In this document: positions 1 to 6,073 of the stretch, piece after piece
Numbering within the stretch: the stretch's first letter is position 1
How the letters are laid out: the number at the start of each line of letters is the position of its first letter
Source of the DNA: a virus
Taxonomy: Duplodnaviria; Heunggongvirae; Uroviricota; Caudoviricetes
Direction: 5' to 3' (one strand)
DNA length: 15,563 nucleotides
Virus record (IMG/VR): IMGVR_UViG_2718217897_000008
Notes under the pieces: model-generated
The model's database searches: none
The model's input: only the letters and a program-made list of their open reading frames with translations
Told to the model about the DNA's origin: nothing
Position numbers and translations under genes: made by a program

Positions 1-750
1 TCAGTCAATTGTTTTGTTTATTCCATCTGTGACGCCGATTATTTTCTCAAAATAATGAGATGGCGTGACACCATAATAATCTTTAAATGCACATATGAAA
101 TATGAAGTACTGTTATAGCCACATTTCTGGGCTACGACATTGATAGAATAAGAGTTTGAAGTTATGAGTTTTTTTGCATACCTCATCCTAGTATCTCTCA
201 ATATTTCAGTAAATGACGTTCCTTCATCCCTTAATCTTTTTTTTATTAAACTTTCACTCGTATAAATCAATTCCGCAATATCTTTTAAATGCCATTGCCG
301 CTCAATATTAAAACTGATTATTCCAGTAATTTTACAGGTAAATGTATTTATATTTGTTAGTATAAATGAATTTACACTTTCGCGTTTTTTGAACATGGCA
401 AGTAAGGATATACATAGTCTTTCTTTTAACCAAAGGGAGTGTGAGTCTGCTATTTTAATCCCTTCAAACAGAGAAAAAACAAGCGATAATGGAGGTTCCT
501 CTTCAGCAATATAGCCATTCTTATCAAGAGTAAATTTGCCAGGCAGCTCATTATTCACGTCGATAAAAAAGGATAAACATGTTTTCTTATCTATATCAAC
601 AATTCTTAGTTTAGAGGGGCATACTGGTAACTCCCTTCTAATTTTGTCGCTTACAATAAACAATGAATTTTTTTTGAACGAGATAACTCTCCTGTTTATA
701 ATTAAATCAAATGATTGACAGATGAAAACTACGGAGCAAACATAATCCAT
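1..750 (-). CDS. appY: AraC/XylS-family transcriptional regulator, 249 aa (AppY-like)
   Basis: 249-aa ORF with a C-terminal AraC-type helix-turn-helix region (translation ...[24 protein letters not shown]...); length and position at the prophage end match AppY as I recall it; long AT-rich upstream region 751-1320. Confidence 0.75.
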
Positions 751-1425
751 CTTGCACCTATCATAAAATTAAAACAAGTTGATAGCAGTCAAATAACAAC
801 CAATTAAATACACAATCATAATCAGGATGATGTGCATTTATATTTTTATACACAAAATTATAGTTTGCAAATTTTAATAAATTTCATTTAAGATTAAATT
901 ATTATATGTATATTGTTTTTTATTCTAACGTATTTCAAAGTTACATTTTTCAACGCTTACTATACTTTTTATTAACATAAACTCACTACAACGCACCTGA
1001 AACCTCTTGCTATATATATGTCAACCGTTTGAATTTAAAATAAAAAGAGTATCATTTTTACTTGCATTTCTTATCAAGTCACATTCAACAACAGTAAAAA
1101 AACATTATTAGAACCATTCAATTAACAAAAAACCAACATCCAGCTTGCTTAATTTTTCTTTATTAAACGACATTGAAAATCAATTGATAAAATACATCTA
1201 AACAACCTTTTGGGGCGCAAAAGCATAACATCAAACAAACAAATAACACACCGAAAAAACTCACAATTAATAACCTATGATATACATACTGTTTATTATG
1301 GTTGAATAAGCCACTCGATATCTGGTGCTACGGAAGTGTCCACACGGTTTAGCAGCACCCGATACTTTTTCCAGGCTTCCAGCAACGAGTTTTCTTCCTC
1401 CGTTGCATATACAGCTCACCTTTTT

Positions 1426-1719
1426 TCACCCACGATTAACCAACAGCCAGACCAGCAGACACGCCACCACCGGCACAGCAAAATCCATCAGGCTTGCCAC
1501 ATCCCATGCACGTGTATCAAAACCGCCCCACCACGGCATATTCATTCGCTTGCCATGCCCGAACATTTCGATCCAGCGATATTCTGCCTGGGTGTGTTCA
1601 CGCGCAATGAAGAACGTACAACCGGCTATCGCCCCGTAAGCCCAGTTCCCGGTAAAAAGACCAATCAGTAGCTGCGCAGCCACAGCACAAAGCGCATGAA
1701 GGAAAGGTGTTATATCCAT
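1426..1719 (-). CDS. hypothetical small integral membrane protein, 97 aa
   Basis: ATG at 1719 preceded by a strong Shine-Dalgarno (AAGGAGGAG on the coding strand, 1721-1729); hydrophobic N- and C-terminal segments (AVAAQLLIGLF..., FAVPVVACLLVWLLV); the two overlapping plus-strand ORFs are low-complexity and look antisense. Confidence 0.55.
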   Translation of the reverse strand: MDITPFLHALCAVAAQLLIGLFTGNWAYGAIAGCTFFIAREHTQAEYRWIEMFGHGKRMNMPWWGGFDTRAWDVASLMDFAVPVVACLLVWLLVNRG

Positions 1720-1764
1720 TACTCCTCCTTTATCCGATATCGCTTCGGGAAACGGATAACAACT

Positions 1765-1962
1765 TTAATTCTGACTCAAGTTTTCGTTCTCAATTTCAGC
1801 ATCCCTTTCGGCATACCATCTTATAACGGCGGCAGAGTCATAAAGCACCTCATTACCCTTGCCACCGCCTCGCAGAACGGGCATTCCCTGTTCCTGCCAG
1901 TTCTGAATGGTACGGATACTCGCACCGAAAATGTCAGCCAGCTGCTTTTTGTTGACTTCCAT
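1765..1962 (-). pseudogene. nohD: terminase small subunit Nu1 remnant, 65 aa (N-terminal DNA-binding domain only)
   Basis: Translation MEVNKKQLADIFGASIRTIQNWQEQGMPVLRGGGKGNEVLYDSAAVIRWYAERDAEIENE matches the lambda Nu1 N-terminus; it diverges after about residue 59 and stops at 65 aa, whereas Nu1 is 181 aa, and no terminase large subunit follows. Confidence 0.8.
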
Positions 1963-2200
1963 TGTTCATTCCACGGCCAAAAACAGAGAAAGGAAACGAC
2001 AGAGGCCCAAAAGCTCGTTTTCAGCACCTGTCGTTTCCTTTCTTTTCAGGGGGTATTTTAAATAAAAACATTAAGTTACGACGAAGAAGAACGGAAATGC
2101 CTTAAACCGGAAAATTTTCATAAATAGCGAAAACCCGCGAGGTCGCCGCCCCGTAACCTGTCGGATCGCCGGAAAGGACCCGCAAAATGATAATAATTAT
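1963..2200. other. lambda-type cos site: cosB R-sites at 1991-2002, 2029-2040 and about 2086-2100; cosN 12-nt cohesive-end sequence at 2140-2151; right-end side beyond
   Basis: Reverse complement of 2140-2151 is GGGCGGCGACCT, the lambda cohesive end; flanking sequence matches the lambda left and right ends as I recall them; perfect 12-bp inverted pair AGGAAACGACAG / CTGTCGTTTCCT between cosN and the Nu1 start. Confidence 0.8.
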
Positions 2201-2350
2201 CATCTACATGTCACAACGTGCATCTACGCCATCAAACCACGTCAAATAATCAATTATGACGCAGGTATCGTATTAATTGATCTGCATCAACTTAACGTAA
2301 AAACAACTTCAGACAATACAAATCAGCGACACTGAATACGGGGCAACCTC

Positions 2351-2545: not shown

Positions 2546-2906
2546 ACATCCCGGTTTCTTCCACCATCGCACCGGAAAAGCGACTATGAGGGTAACCCTG
2601 CGTCTGTCAGCACAGTAAAACCCGGTGTGCATCGTTTTTGATTATTCCCGCACACTCACGCAGAAGGAATTCCCCGTCGGGCTACGGTCATGGTTAATGC
2701 GGGAATACGGCGACGATACAGCGCAGCTAAAAGGGTAATGGACAGAAAGAGCGGTTTATTTCATTCCACAGGATTCTGAGTGCCCCCCCCTCCTCCAATA
2801 GGCTGAGCATCCACCTATATAGTTTTAATTTTCATCAATCCATTTAACTATCGTTTAATTGTTGTCACATAGGATTCTGCCGTTTTTAACAATGCAGGAT
2901 AATAAG

Positions 2907-3231: not shown

Positions 3232-3693
3232 CTATCTGCACTGCTCATTAATATACTTCTGGGTTCCTTCCAGTTGTTTTTGCATAGTGATCAGCCTCTC
3301 TCTGAGGGTGAAATAATCCCGTTCAGCGGTGTCTGCCAGTCGGGGGGAGGCTGCATTATCCACGCCGGAGGCGGTGGTGGCTTCACGCACTGACTGACAG
3401 ACTGCTTTGATGTGCAACCGACGACGACCAGCGGCAACATCATCACGCAGAGCATCATTTTCAGCTTTCGCATTAGCTAACTCCTTCGTGTATTTTTCAT
3501 CCAGTGCAGCAACATCACGCTGGCGCATCTGCATGTCAGTAATTGCCGCGTTCGCCAGCTTCAGTTCTCTGGCATTTTTGTCGCGCTGGGCTTTGTAGGT
3601 AATGGCGTTATCACGGTAATGATTAACAGCCCATGACAGGCAGACGATGATGCAGATAACCAGAGCGGAGATAATCGCGGTTACTCTGTTCAT
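3232..3693 (-). CDS. rzpD: Rz inner-membrane spanin (i-spanin), 153 aa
   Basis: Near-identity to lambda Rz ([44 protein letters not shown]...); N-terminal transmembrane segment; ATGA start/stop overlap with the upstream endolysin. Confidence 0.85.
3291..3473 (-). CDS. rzoD: Rz1 outer-membrane lipoprotein spanin (o-spanin), 60 aa, embedded in Rz in another frame
   Basis: Translation [24 protein letters not shown]...[16 protein letters not shown]: lipobox plus proline-rich region characteristic of Rz1, nested within Rz. Confidence 0.8.
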
Positions 3694-4187
3694 TGCTGAC
3701 CCCACAAACAGATTTCACGCTCAATCTCACGACGAGTCATGAGACCTTTCCATTGCTTACCGCCAGCATATGTCCAGCGACGTAGCTGATCACATGCGCC
3801 TTTGATATCGCCCTGGTTTATTTTGCGAAGAAGCGTCGATGTTCTGAAATTGCCAGCGCCCACGTTGTAAACGAACGAGTAAAGAGCGCCGCGCGTTGTT
3901 TCCGGTATATCAACTTTTATGTACGGGTTAATTTGTCTGGCGACCGTGGCAAGGTCTTTATTCAGGAGGGCTTTGCATTCTGCTTTGGTATACGTTTTAC
4001 CGAGCATGATGTCTTTTCCTGTATGCCCGTGACATACAGTCCATACACCAACAATATCTTTGTATGGTATGTAGCTGACACCTTCCAGACCATCGTTACC
4101 ACTTGGGCCAGTGATTAACACTGATGCTATAGCAATTGCTCCGCCACCAATAGCAGCAGCAACGGCTTTTCGTAATGATGGAGGCAT
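3690..4187 (-). CDS. rrrD: SAR endolysin (phage 21 R-type lysozyme), 165 aa
   Basis: Gly/Ala-rich signal-anchor-release N-terminus ([20 protein letters not shown]) followed by the E-x8-D-x5-T lysozyme catalytic triad spacing ([17 protein letters not shown]); one-nucleotide overlap with the holin stop. Confidence 0.85.
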
Positions 4188-4402
4188 TATTCACCTCTCG
4201 CAGCCTTGCGCTTATCTTCTTTAATCTTGAAATAAAGGTTTGTCAGGTACGTCAGCAGGCCAAATACCAGGCTACCCAGCACACCTATTGCTGCCCACTG
4301 TGAGGGCGTGACTTTATCGAGCAGCTGTAAAAACCAGTAACCGGCACTACCTGCTGAGGTGCCATAGGCGACACCCGTTGTTAACTTATCCATGGATTTC
4401 AT
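4187..4402 (-). CDS. essD: pinholin (S21-type class II holin), 71 aa, with dual-start motif
   Basis: Translation [28 protein letters not shown]...[36 protein letters not shown]: two transmembrane segments, Met1/Met4 dual start typical of holin/antiholin pairs, GAGGTGG Shine-Dalgarno upstream; the ORF-track start at 4447 is an upstream extension. Confidence 0.8.
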
Positions 4403-4990
4403 AACCCCACCTCGCAGACAAAGCGGGTGTAAATTGAGGGAATACAACGTATCGCAAAAAAGCAGAAACGTAACAGACTCGGAGTCAGTGAATAACTCAG
4501 GTATTGAGTTATCAGCTAATATCGAGACTCAAAAAATGGAAAAACCAGCTCGACGGCGGGTTTAAGCTGTGTGACGAAGTAACCACTCTTAACAGCATAA
4601 CCAATTTTTTACGTACGTAAACCACTGAATGATATTTATGAGAATGCTACCGAGTGTTCAAAACACCACCACAAATATATAAGAAAACCTCAACAAATAA
4701 CCAATAAATAATTTCCGGCGTTATTTTTAGTTGATTTAAATTAAACCACTGAATTATAGAACCCCCATAAATAACAGCCATTAATATAAATTAGCTAATA
4801 GGTTTATTTTTGTTCAAATAAGAGCCATAAATAGGTTTCGATAGAAAAAGTTCAGATAAAAATAGAGATCTACTTCACAAATTAAATGAGAAACTAAAAC
4901 TTACATCTTGAAATAATCACATTGATTAGATGAATATTTATCGCGCAGTGACATCATTTTTTAATAATAGTTCAAAAAAAAGGGCTCACG

Positions 4991-6073
4991 ATGAAAAAAT
5001 TAACAGTGGCAATTTCTGCTGTAGCTGCATCAGTACTGATGGCGATGTCTGCTCAGGCAGCTGAAATTTATAATAAAGACAGTAACAAGCTGGATCTGTA
5101 CGGGAAAGTTAATGCCAAGCACTACTTTTCCTCTAACGATGCAGATGATGGTGATACTACTTATGCCCGTCTTGGCTTCAAAGGTGAAACCCAAATCAAC
5201 GATCAACTGACTGGTTTCGGTCAGTGGGAATATGAATTCAAAGGCAACCGCGCTGAATCTCAAGGTTCCTCCAAAGACAAAACCCGTCTTGCATTTGCAG
5301 GCCTGAAATTCGGTGACTACGGCTCAATCGATTACGGCCGTAACTACGGTGTAACATACGACATCGGTGCGTGGACTGACGTTCTGCCAGAATTCGGTGG
5401 CGATACCTGGACCCAAACAGATGTGTTCATGACTGGTCGCACCACTGGTGTTGCAACCTATCGTAACAACGACTTCTTTGGTCTGGTCGATGGCCTGAAC
5501 TTTGCTGCTCAGTATCAGGGTAAAAATGACCGCACTGACGTAACTGAAGCCAATGGTGATGGTTTCGGTTTCTCCACTACTTATGAGTATGAAGGATTCG
5601 GCGTGGGTGCAACCTATGCTAAATCAGATCGCACTGACGGTCAGGTCGCCTATGGTAAGAGCAAATTCAATGCCTCCGGCAAAAATGCGGAAGTATGGGC
5701 TGCAGGCCTGAAATATGATGCGAACAATATCTATCTGGCTACCACATATTCTGAAACTCAGAATATGACCGTTTTTGGTAATAACCATATTGCAAACAAA
5801 GCACAAAACTTTGAAGCAGTAGCACAATATCAGTTTGACTTCGGTCTGCGACCATCTGTTGCTTACCTTCAGTCAAAAGGTAAAGACCTTGGTGTTCATG
5901 GTGACCGAGACTTAGTCAAGTATGTCGATGTCGGTGCTACTTACTACTTTAATAAAAACATGTCCACTTTTGTTGATTACAAAATCAACTTAATTGACGA
6001 TAGTAAGTTTACCAAAACAGCTGGTATTGATACCGACGACATCGTCGCTGTAGGTCTGGTGTATCAGTTCTAA
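4991..6073 (+). CDS. nmpC: general porin of the OmpC/OmpF/PhoE family (NmpC/OmpD-like), 360 aa, apparently intact
   Basis: Signal peptide [23 protein letters not shown] then AEIYNKD...; porin family blocks ([26 protein letters not shown], ends ...VAVGLVYQF with C-terminal Phe); no interruption. Confidence 0.85.

What the first reader, a model, noticed from the sequence alone, without database searches (positions are those of the whole stretch)
1426..1719. Orphan 97-aa membrane protein with a near-consensus RBS at the morphogenesis deletion scar
This ORF sits exactly where the terminase large subunit should follow Nu1. It has an AAGGAGGAG Shine-Dalgarno and predicted transmembrane segments, and I cannot place it in any family from memory. 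Small membrane proteins at prophage ends are frequent superinfection-exclusion or abortive-infection effectors.
Basis: inference. Interest (0 to 1): 0.45.

Follow-up and report, generated by a model that had tools for sequence, protein, structure and literature searches.

The report
Tail-fibre-linked phage membrane protein, function unknown
The 97-residue ORF is a real, intact gene, but it is not an orphan: it belongs to a very common, uncharacterised family of small phage inner-membrane proteins that normally sit just after tail-fibre genes, and a 6.5-kb deletion in a decayed E. coli prophage has placed it next to a broken packaging gene.

Summary
The ORF (1426-1719, minus strand, 97 aa, ATG, AAGGAGGAG Shine-Dalgarno at 1722-1730) is there as described. 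It is a real gene: it gives a full-length match to PHROG 1443 (E 2.8e-58), has dN/dS of about 0.12, and folds as a confident three-helix membrane model.

It is not an orphan. The same gene occurs in 1,899 of 5,426 complete E. coli genomes, in 72 sequenced phages including phage 21, and in prophages across Proteobacteria. No source gives it a function, and it has no Pfam, NCBIfam or PADLOC match.

Its native position is the last cistron of the side-tail-fibre operon. Here it abuts a 60-codon Nu1 stump because a further 6,515-bp deletion, with 2-nt microhomology, removed J'-stf'-chaperone-fibre from a DLP12 prophage that was already degraded.

In diverse phages the conserved neighbour is an upstream tail-fibre or tailspike gene. 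Downstream neighbours vary. Virulent phages with the same fibre and chaperone lack the gene, so it is accessory.

Entry-level superinfection exclusion or envelope conversion is the best guess (about 0.4) and is untested. This is an ordinary hypothetical gene that offers a modestly interesting lead.

The parts
1426..1719 (-). 97-aa gene of the PHROG 1443 family (identical to WP_000355602.1, 'Ybl63'). It is a predicted three-helix inner-membrane protein. Residues H8, R40, E41, W72 and P83 are invariant, and Q44, A45 and E46 are nearly invariant.
   Evidence: ORF; PHROG match; alignments A1 and A3; AlphaFold2 model; dN/dS 0.12; identical annotated CDS in REL606 and AST19.
1722..1730 (-). Native Shine-Dalgarno sequence AAGGAGGAG. 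Its first two A's (1729-1730) overlap the TAA stop (1730-1732) of the lost upstream fibre gene.
   Evidence: Sequence; identical in REL606, where the fibre CDS ends 10 nt before the ATG.
1730..1782 (-). The last 53 nt, including the stop codon, of the deleted tail-fibre-domain gene. This is the fibre carrying a Peptidase_S74 intramolecular chaperone domain.
   Evidence: Alignment to REL606 and AST19; Pfam match on the REL606 protein.
1781..1782 (.). Deletion junction: a 2-nt microhomology (TT) where 6,515 bp present in AST19-type DLP12 are missing.
   Evidence: Base-by-base comparison. The junction is absent from all 5,426 complete E. coli genomes.
1765..1962 (-). Truncated nohD (Nu1, terminase small subunit): 60 Nu1 codons fused out of frame to the fibre-gene tail (…AEIENE|NLSQN*).
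   Evidence: Pfam Phage_Nu1 E 3.7e-37, covering profile positions 1-64 of 164; alignment to intact nohD of LR-28.
1296..1406 (-). C-terminal remnant of a tail fibre assembly (Tfa) gene, downstream of the 97-aa gene.
   Evidence: RefSeq pseudogene annotation at the same coordinates in REL606 and AST19.
1..750 (-). appY, the host-side flank. It marks the right end of the DLP12 prophage.
1987..2043 (.). 26-nt inverted repeat in the cos region upstream of nohD', probably the terminase-binding R sites of cosB.
   Evidence: Repeat found. The assignment to cosB rests on my knowledge of the lambda cos sequence.

Best explanation
SHOWN. The ORF is an intact copy of a widespread, uncharacterised phage gene family (PHROG 1443). 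It encodes a protein of about 97 aa with three membrane helices. Its native place is the last, tightly coupled cistron after the receptor-binding (side tail fibre or tailspike) genes of lambdoid and many other tailed phages of Proteobacteria. In this window it lies beside a Nu1 stump only because a second, 6.5-kb deletion in an already decayed DLP12 prophage removed everything from Nu1 codon 61 to 53 nt before the end of the fibre gene, stop included. The gene's own ribosome-binding site was kept.

INFERRED. The protein is not a virion part or a fibre-assembly factor. It is an accessory inner-membrane protein that travels with receptor-binding modules. It most likely changes the infected or lysogenic cell so that phages cannot enter again, either by blocking DNA entry at the inner membrane or by altering synthesis of the envelope receptor. 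It would do this through a conserved His...Arg-Glu-x-x-Gln-Ala-Glu cluster predicted to lie at the cytoplasmic membrane face.

In this particular strain the gene may simply be a recently stranded passenger. It would be transcribed, if at all, by read-through from the DLP12 late promoter.
For: Identity and family:
- Full-length PHROG 1443 match.
- 72 phage records, including phage 21, where it is annotated 'putative membrane protein'.
- 1,899 of 5,426 complete E. coli genomes carry it.
- 434 clusters at 50% identity, all stand-alone proteins of about 60-146 aa among the best 150 listed.
- Hosts span gamma-, beta- and alpha-proteobacteria and Desulfovibrio.
- Purifying selection, dN/dS 0.12.

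Origin of the present position:
- The window equals AST19-type DLP12 minus 6,515 bp, with a TT microhomology and 4 SNPs elsewhere.

Linkage to receptor-binding genes:
- Phage 21: J-stf-92aa-97aa. PhiR63_1 and REL606: stf-93aa-fibre-97aa.
- P2-like phiHAP-1: fibre-tfa-member-sheath.
- T1-like HC6: directly after an 859-aa unannotated protein that I take to be a tail fibre from its position.
- Comamonas and enterobacterial prophages: after J or the fibre.
- In 7 of 10 diverse IMG/VR loci scanned one by one, the nearest large upstream ORF hits tail fibre or tailspike PHROGs. The pooled scan of 24 upstream ORFs gave almost only tail families.
- Downstream neighbours are heterogeneous: capsid and scaffold, holin and endolysin, sheath, or the prophage end.

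Accessory, not needed for the fibre:
- The partner protein PHROG 1361 ('putative lateral tail fiber chaperone') and its fibre occur in 143 phage records, including T5-like and T1-like virulent phages. None of those appear among the listed hits for the 97-aa gene.

Retention in decayed prophages:
- This window, LR-28, and a JGI contig where it sits alone beside toxin-antitoxin and IS genes.

Topology:
- K+R count is 5.7 (N-tail plus long loop) versus 0.5 (short loop plus C-tail), which predicts N-in/C-out with the conserved motif in the cytoplasm.

Precedent:
- HK97 gp15, a small inner-membrane exclusion protein encoded inside a tail operon (PMC3594210).
- Cor and Imm (PMC11436027).
Against: - No experiment or database annotation links the family to any function.
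- It does not look like a classical moron. No promoter-like or terminator-like site flanks it above chance, in the window, in phage 21 or in REL606. It starts 10-13 nt after the preceding gene, so expression from a repressed prophage is not evident.
- Only about 3 residues per side are predicted to reach the periplasm. Direct contact with an incoming tail or an outer-membrane receptor is therefore unlikely.
- A few members occur in virulent phages (T1-like phages, Aeromonas jumbo phages).
- In several phages the lysis cassette follows directly, which fits a lysis-related role equally well.
- The 100% identity of this copy to intact prophage copies says nothing about selection in this strain.
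Confidence: 0.4

Rival explanations
1. Lysis-associated membrane protein. The family would be a holin-like, antiholin-like or lysis-timing factor expressed late with the fibres, by analogy with T4, where holin gene t directly follows tail-fibre gene 38 (my knowledge).
For: - In a Comamonas prophage the member's stop overlaps the start of a 125-aa multi-TM ORF. That ORF is followed by a 99-aa TM ORF, a PHROG 3108 protein with a GLQES motif, and an Rz/Rz1-like pair.
- In Aeromonas phage 62AhydR11PP the member follows PHROG 3108 and a two-TM protein.
- Among diverse IMG/VR loci, holin and endolysin PHROGs recur downstream.
- The protein is small, has three TM helices and appears to be expressed late, as holins are.
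Against: - In about 59 lambdoid phage records the complete S/R/Rz cassette lies about 20 kb away, while the member stays glued to the fibre genes.
- In phiHAP-1 the next gene is the tail sheath. In podovirus-like contigs the next genes are scaffold and capsid.
- There is no match to any holin PHROG or Pfam family.
- The strict conservation of a polar motif across classes of Proteobacteria is unlike holins, which diverge fast (my knowledge).
Confidence: 0.15
2. Morphogenetic helper for the receptor-binding protein. The family would be a membrane-anchored factor needed for folding, trimerisation, processing or attachment of the upstream fibre or spike.
For: - It is always on the same strand, just downstream of fibre or spike genes, and often overlaps or abuts them.
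- It has no promoter of its own, so it should be made together with the fibres.
Against: - The same stf plus 92-aa chaperone pair functions in more than 100 virulent T1- and T5-like phages that lack the gene.
- The upstream fibres and spikes belong to many unrelated PHROG families.
- Some of those fibres carry their own intramolecular chaperone (Peptidase_S74).
- The protein is almost wholly buried in the membrane.
- It is retained in prophage remnants that have lost every fibre gene (this window).
Confidence: 0.12
3. Small membrane enzyme or transporter subunit that gives the host a benefit unrelated to phages, such as lipid or envelope metabolism or stress tolerance. It would merely hitch-hike in the recombination-prone fibre region.
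For: - The invariant His, Arg-Glu and Gln/Glu cluster at one membrane face resembles an active or binding site.
- Very small membrane enzymes exist: DgkA has 121 aa and three TM helices (my knowledge).
- The gene is retained in degraded prophages.
Against: - The strict synteny with receptor-binding genes would be unexplained.
Confidence: 0.13
4. Abortive-infection toxin or effector.
For: It is a small membrane protein in a prophage. Some Abi effectors, such as RexB-type proteins, are membrane proteins (my knowledge).
Against: - No PADLOC match.
- No partner sensor gene is conserved next to it. Downstream genes vary, and the usual upstream partner is a fibre chaperone found in virulent phages.
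- It is present in up to 7 copies per genome with a strong ribosome-binding site, which does not fit a poised toxin.
Confidence: 0.05

Closest known systems
PHROG 1443 (for example phage 21 CPT_21_24 'putative membrane protein'; E. coli WP_000355602.1, 'Ybl63')
   Same: Same family over its full length. The protein is 100% identical to copies in REL606, AST19 and phage PhiR63_1, and 94.8% identical to the phage 21 protein. It has the same position after the side-tail-fibre genes.
   Different: Nothing in the protein differs. Only the context differs: here the upstream fibre genes are deleted and a Nu1 stump abuts the gene.
HK97 gp15 (YebO-like inner-membrane superinfection-exclusion protein encoded inside the tail operon)
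   Same: It is a small inner-membrane protein encoded among tail genes of a lambdoid phage. It blocks DNA entry without touching the outer-membrane receptor (PMC3594210). This is the best functional analogy for the present gene.
   Different: There is no detectable sequence or fold similarity. gp15 is a classical moron, with its own promoter and terminator, and is expressed from the prophage. The present gene shows neither signal and sits at the end of the fibre operon, not between the tail chaperone and the tape measure.
Cor (phi80, N15, T1) and Llp (T5): receptor-masking lipoproteins encoded next to receptor-binding protein genes
   Same: These are accessory genes placed beside the tail-tip or fibre genes. 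They protect against phages that use the same receptor (PMC11436027 for Cor; gene position and Llp from my knowledge).
   Different: Cor and Llp are outer-membrane lipoproteins with a lipobox. The 97-aa protein has no lipobox: position -1 to C11 is Leu, and C11 is not conserved. It is predicted to be a polytopic inner-membrane protein.
T4 Imm and P22 SieA (inner-membrane DNA-injection blockers)
   Same: They are small or polytopic inner-membrane proteins that exclude superinfecting DNA.
   Different: No Pfam match to Imm_superinfect or any other family. Those genes are expressed early or from the prophage and are not linked to fibre genes.
P2 Z/fun slot (lysogenic-conversion gene between tail-fibre-assembly gene G and sheath gene FI)
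   Same: In the P2-like phage phiHAP-1 the family member occupies exactly this slot, between tfa and the sheath gene. In P2 that slot holds an exclusion gene active against T5 (my knowledge).
   Different: This is a positional analogy only. No homology to Z/fun was tested or is known.

Membership tests
PHROG 1443 (uncharacterised phage protein family) | Full-length match to the family HMM | tested here: met
   E 2.8e-58, residues 1-96 on profile positions 1-96 of 97. Distant members from phiHAP-1 and Aeromonas phages hit the same PHROG.
PHROG 1443 (uncharacterised phage protein family) | Conserved motif H8 / R40-E41 / Q44-A45-E46 / W72 / P83 and a three-helix layout | tested here: met
   Alignments A1 and A3; AlphaFold2 model with pLDDT 90.7.
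Moron (Hendrix/Juhala sense) | Own promoter and terminator flanking the gene | tested here: not met
   Consensus scans find no flanking site above chance in the window, phage 21 or REL606. The stop of the upstream gene overlaps the Shine-Dalgarno sequence. A simple consensus scan can miss weak promoters.
Moron (Hendrix/Juhala sense) | Base composition different from neighbouring genes | tested here: inconclusive
   The gene is 53.4% GC. Neighbours are 45.0% (fibre), 40.4% (93-aa gene), 49.4% (stf) and 56.4% (J). It is higher than its immediate neighbours but within the range of the prophage.
Moron (Hendrix/Juhala sense) | Present or absent between otherwise related phages | tested here: met
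   The fibre plus chaperone module occurs without the gene in T1- and T5-like phages.
Known superinfection-exclusion or defence families (T4 Imm, SieA/SieB, PADLOC systems) | Sequence homology to a characterised family | tested here: not met
   Pfam: only PhoR at E 0.066, below the cutoff. NCBIfam: none. PADLOC: none.
Known superinfection-exclusion or defence families (T4 Imm, SieA/SieB, PADLOC systems) | Reduces plating or DNA entry of superinfecting phage when expressed | not testable with these tools
   Needs a wet-lab assay.
Cor/Llp-type receptor-masking lipoproteins | Signal peptide with lipobox, [LVI][ASTVI][GAS]C | tested here: not met
   The N-terminus is MDITPFLHALCAV. It has no basic n-region, position -1 is Leu, and the Cys is not conserved in the family.
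Holins | Encoded in the lysis cassette next to an endolysin, or matching a holin family | tested here: not met
   In lambdoid phages and in this window the lysis genes lie elsewhere (essD/rrrD/rzpD at about 3232-4447). There is no holin PHROG or Pfam hit. A lysis cassette is adjacent only in some non-lambdoid phages.
Tail fibre assembly proteins (Tfa / Caudo_TAP) | Homology to Tfa, soluble chaperone | tested here: not met
   No Pfam or PHROG Tfa hit. The protein is a membrane protein. A separate Tfa remnant lies downstream at 1296-1406.
Terminase large subunit (the gene expected after Nu1) | Homology to gpA / Terminase_GpA | tested here: not met
   No such hit. The terminase large subunit gene is deleted here, as in the AST19-type relatives.

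The most novel reading that the evidence does not exclude
PHROG 1443 could be a new, Proteobacteria-wide class of factor linked to receptor-binding-protein genes. It would be a minimal, 97-aa inner-membrane enzyme or inhibitor. Its invariant His / Arg-Glu / Gln-x-Glu cluster at the cytoplasmic membrane face would block or alter the synthesis or export of the surface glycan, or the inner-membrane entry channel, used by the phage whose fibre gene it follows. This would be a compact, portable 'receptor conversion plus fibre' cassette shared by siphoviruses, myoviruses and podoviruses.
Probability: 0.15. Interest if true: 0.7.

Novelty: new member of a known kind. Interest (0 to 1): 0.3.

Why it matters
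As it stands, this is an ordinary 'hypothetical protein' in a decayed prophage, and the apparent oddity of its position is explained by a nested deletion.

The family has some value as a lead. It is carried by a third of complete E. coli genomes, often in several copies. It is conserved from Escherichia to Comamonas, Sphingomonas and Desulfovibrio prophages. It has an unusually rigid polar motif for so small a membrane protein. It is almost always welded to the receptor-binding genes. It has no name, no Pfam entry and no literature.

If it proves to be an exclusion or receptor-conversion factor, it would add a very common new family to the short list of entry-level phage defences. It would then be relevant to host-range prediction and to phage-therapy failures in E. 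coli.

Tried and rejected
- Pfam, NCBIfam and PADLOC scans of the protein gave nothing above threshold. PhoR N-terminal domain scored E 0.066. It recurred weakly in 4 of 32 family members, which I judge to be similarity in transmembrane composition.
- A profile search of PDB sequences gave one chance hit at E 0.3.
- Foldseek against BFVD found nothing at E up to 0.001.
- The afdb50 structure library was not available.
- Literature searches by accession, PHROG id, FIG id and the UniRef name 'Ybl63' found nothing relevant. Keyword searches for tail-fibre-linked exclusion proteins found only general reviews.
- The Tai tail-assembly-interference systems (PMC11364771) were considered and dropped. 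In phi80 they are orf63/orf64, not in the fibre operon.
- Rfam found no RNA family anywhere in the window.
- A search for a dedicated promoter or terminator found nothing above chance.
- The viral-contig search with alignment A3 failed for lack of a conserved block. The search with P0192 found no relatives.
- My crude ORF caller on GC-rich genome loci gave only rough neighbour statistics. I do not lean on them.
- The antisense ORFs on the plus strand (1325-1639, 1336-1671, 1696-2061) were treated as spurious. Conservation and the dN/dS signal follow the minus-strand frame.

Full report
THE OBSERVATION

The window carries an ATG-initiated ORF on the minus strand at 1426-1719 that encodes 97 residues. 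AAGGAGGAG lies at 1722-1730, two bases before the ATG. The protein is hydrophobic. An AlphaFold2 model built on a 24-sequence alignment is confident (mean pLDDT 90.7) and shows three helices: 4-23, 26-53 and 74-96. The physical description is therefore correct.

The ORF is a real gene and not a chance reading frame:
- It matches the phage family PHROG 1443 end to end (E 2.8e-58).
- It has 453 related clusters at 90% identity in a database of 5.8 billion proteins.
- A profile search of 1.8 billion representatives finds 434 clusters at 50% identity. All of the best 150 listed are stand-alone proteins of about 60-146 aa.
- Thirty-nine distinct alleles from E. coli prophages give a pooled dN/dS of 0.12.

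WHERE THE WINDOW COMES FROM, AND WHY THE ORF FOLLOWS Nu1

The window is the right part of the E. coli cryptic prophage DLP12. The order is appY at 1-750, then the ORF, a Nu1 fragment, cos, ylcI, iss/bor, rzpD/rrrD/essD, an ompC-like porin, quuD, and so on to intD.

The closest complete genomes, such as AST19, MIN14 and REL606, have the same DNA with only 4 SNPs. They carry an extra 6,515 bp between the Nu1 gene and the ORF. That segment holds a J remnant, a truncated stf, a 93-aa gene and a 234-aa tail-fibre-domain gene.

In the window, identity to the appY-side part (window 1 to 1782) ends at 1782. Identity to the other part, beyond the deletion, starts at 1781. The deletion therefore has a 2-nt (TT) microhomology. 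It leaves 60 Nu1 codons fused out of frame to the last 53 nt of the fibre gene (…AEIENE|NLSQN*).

This exact junction is in none of the 5,426 complete E. coli genomes.

However, the ORF is not a newcomer in the terminase slot. It is the last gene of the side-tail-fibre operon, and what lay between it and Nu1 has been lost in two steps. The strong Shine-Dalgarno sequence is its native one. In REL606 the TAA stop of the fibre gene overlaps it.

NOT AN ORPHAN

- The identical protein is annotated as a hypothetical protein (WP_000355602.1; UniRef name 'Ybl63') in a cluster of 1,313 members.
- The gene is found in 1,899 of 5,426 complete E. coli genomes. Genomes that carry it have a median of two copies and up to seven.
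- It occurs in 72 sequenced phages. Most are lambdoid coliphages, including phage 21, where it is called 'putative membrane protein'.
- Relatives occur in prophages of Leclercia, Pantoea, Aeromonas, Halomonas, Comamonas, Acidovorax, Sphingomonas, Chelativorans and Desulfovibrio.
- No source gives a function. Pfam, NCBIfam and PADLOC have no model for it.
- Literature searches by accession, PHROG id and name found nothing.

ANATOMY OF THE PROTEIN

Among close relatives (55-93% identity) the segment R40-EHTQAEYRWI-50 is invariant, and most of the G56-D68 segment (G-K-R-x-N-M-P-W-W-G-G-F-D) is invariant or nearly so. H8, Q16, W72, D79, P83 and C87 are also invariant. Among distant relatives (30-54% identity) H8, R40, E41, W72 and P83 stay invariant, and Q44, A45 and E46 nearly so.

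Basic residues are concentrated in the N-tail and the 40-73 loop (5.7 K+R on average). The short 23-26 loop and the C-tail have 0.5. By the positive-inside rule the protein should be N-in/C-out. The conserved polar cluster would then lie at the cytoplasmic face, with only a few residues exposed to the periplasm. This is a prediction and has not been measured.

Fold searches returned only generic helical bundles. A PDB profile search found nothing. A weak, sub-threshold similarity to the PhoR membrane domain recurs in 4 of 32 members. I read it as compositional.

GENOMIC CONTEXT ACROSS THE FAMILY

The constant neighbour is an upstream gene for a receptor-binding protein, on the same strand:
- Phage 21: J, stf, a 92-aa gene, then the member.
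- PhiR63_1 and REL606: stf, a 93-aa gene, a fibre with a Peptidase_S74 intramolecular chaperone, then the member.
- The P2-like myovirus phiHAP-1: fibre, tfa, member, sheath.
- A T1-like virulent phage: an unannotated copy directly after an 859-aa unannotated protein, which I take to be a tail fibre from its position.
- Comamonas and enterobacterial prophages: after J or the fibre.
- Ten diverse metagenomic viral contigs scanned one by one: in seven, the nearest large upstream ORF hits tail-fibre or tailspike PHROGs, and three have no hit.
- A pooled scan of 24 upstream ORFs: the most frequently matched families were almost all tail families, and the rest had no annotation.

Downstream genes are heterogeneous. 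They include scaffold and capsid, holin and endolysin, sheath, HNH endonuclease, or the prophage end.

The 92-93-aa upstream partner (PHROG 1361) is present in 143 phage records. These include many T5-like and T1-like virulent phages, where it is annotated as a putative lateral tail fibre chaperone. Those phages do not appear among the listed hits for the 97-aa gene. The 97-aa protein is therefore not required for that fibre. It is an accessory gene found mainly in temperate phages.

It is also kept in decayed prophages: this window, LR-28, and a JGI contig where it stands alone beside toxin-antitoxin and IS genes.

WHAT IT MOST LIKELY DOES

It is shown that this is an accessory, late-operon-linked, polytopic inner-membrane protein that is co-inherited with receptor-binding modules.

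I infer, with a confidence of about 0.4, that it acts at the level of phage entry or the cell envelope. It would either exclude superinfecting DNA at the inner membrane, as HK97 gp15 does from within a tail operon (PMC3594210), or interfere from the cytoplasmic face with the synthesis or export of the receptor. Cor, Llp and the P2 Z/fun slot are positional analogies (PMC11436027 and my knowledge).

Several points weigh against a textbook lysogenic-conversion gene:
- It has no promoter or terminator of its own by consensus scan.
- It is coupled to the preceding cistron.
- Its periplasmic exposure is predicted to be minimal.
- A few members occur in virulent phages.

RIVAL EXPLANATIONS

- Lysis-related role (0.15). 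This is supported by adjacency to lysis-like cassettes in Comamonas, Aeromonas and some metagenomic phages. It is contradicted by the lambdoid, P2-like and podovirus-like contexts.
- Fibre-morphogenesis helper (0.12). This is contradicted by the virulent phages that have the same fibre without the gene, and by the diversity of upstream fibre families.
- Unrelated small membrane enzyme (0.13).
- Abortive-infection effector (0.05). There is no PADLOC hit, no conserved partner, and several copies occur per genome.

In this particular strain the copy is identical to those in intact modules, so its retention says nothing about selection. It may be silent, or read through from the DLP12 late promoter.

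COMPARISON WITH KNOWN FAMILIES, AND NOVELTY

The gene is a member of PHROG 1443, with every defining feature met. It fails the membership tests for Imm/Sie families, PADLOC systems, Cor/Llp lipoproteins, holins, Tfa and terminase (see the membership table). As a sequence it is already catalogued. As a function it is unassigned. If the leading reading is right, it would be a new family within a known kind, the entry-level exclusion proteins.

VERDICT

This is an ordinary hypothetical prophage gene whose odd location is explained by a nested deletion. The family's abundance, its rigid motif and its strict linkage to tail-fibre genes make it a reasonable, modest-priority target for a simple plating experiment. 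Interest 0.3.

Noticed in passing
window 1780-1783: The 6,515-bp deletion junction (TT microhomology) that distinguishes this window from AST19/REL606-type DLP12 is found in none of 5,426 complete E. coli genomes. The rest of the window differs from AST19 by only 4 SNPs (546, 2861, 5354, 11379).
   Followed up: yes
window 2782-2790: A run of nine C's followed by TCCTCC lies about 115 nt upstream of the iss/bor start (2907). A homopolymer of this length could be a slippage-prone tract affecting iss/bor expression.
   Followed up: no
L088:6970-7521 and L006:2499-2996: PHROG 3108 proteins ('unknown function') in a Comamonas prophage and in Aeromonas phage 62AhydR11PP share a GLQES...FxQFE motif. 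They sit beside multi-TM ORFs, and in the Comamonas prophage they also sit beside an Rz/Rz1-like pair with an embedded lipobox ORF. This is probably an unrecognised endolysin family. There is no Pfam hit and no PDB sequence hit.
   Followed up: partly
L003:4710-4988 (phage 21) and L001:7445-7726 (REL606): The 92-93-aa gene just upstream of the family member in lambdoid phages (PHROG 1361) occurs in 143 phage records, including T5-like, T1-like and JenP1-like virulent phages. In BASEL phages it is annotated as 'putative lateral tail fiber chaperone'. It has no Pfam family.
   Followed up: partly
window 2187-2214, minus strand: A 10-of-12 sigma-70-like match (GTGACA, 16 nt spacer, TATCAT) lies in the cos-nohD intergenic region. 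It points towards nohD' and the 97-aa gene. The number of such sites in the region is not above chance.
   Followed up: no
window 4991-6073: An intact 360-aa ompC-like porin gene (nmpC position) lies in this DLP12. In K-12 the equivalent gene is interrupted by IS5 (my knowledge).
   Followed up: no
L122 (Collinsella sp. MAG contig JAGZNZ010000051.1): A 2.8-kb contig binned as the Gram-positive Collinsella carries a copy 96% identical to the E. coli gene. This is almost certainly E. coli prophage contamination of the bin.
   Followed up: no
L089:1395-1694 (JGI contig Ga0633755_000005): A family member stands alone, with no phage structural genes within 6 kb, next to a MqsA/RelE-like toxin-antitoxin pair, a Fic protein and a transposase fragment. 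This is another example of the gene surviving prophage decay.
   Followed up: no
window 1987-2043: A 26-nt inverted repeat (85% complementary) lies between cosN and nohD'. It matches the lambda cosB R-site arrangement (my knowledge). cos appears intact although the packaging genes are gone.
   Followed up: no
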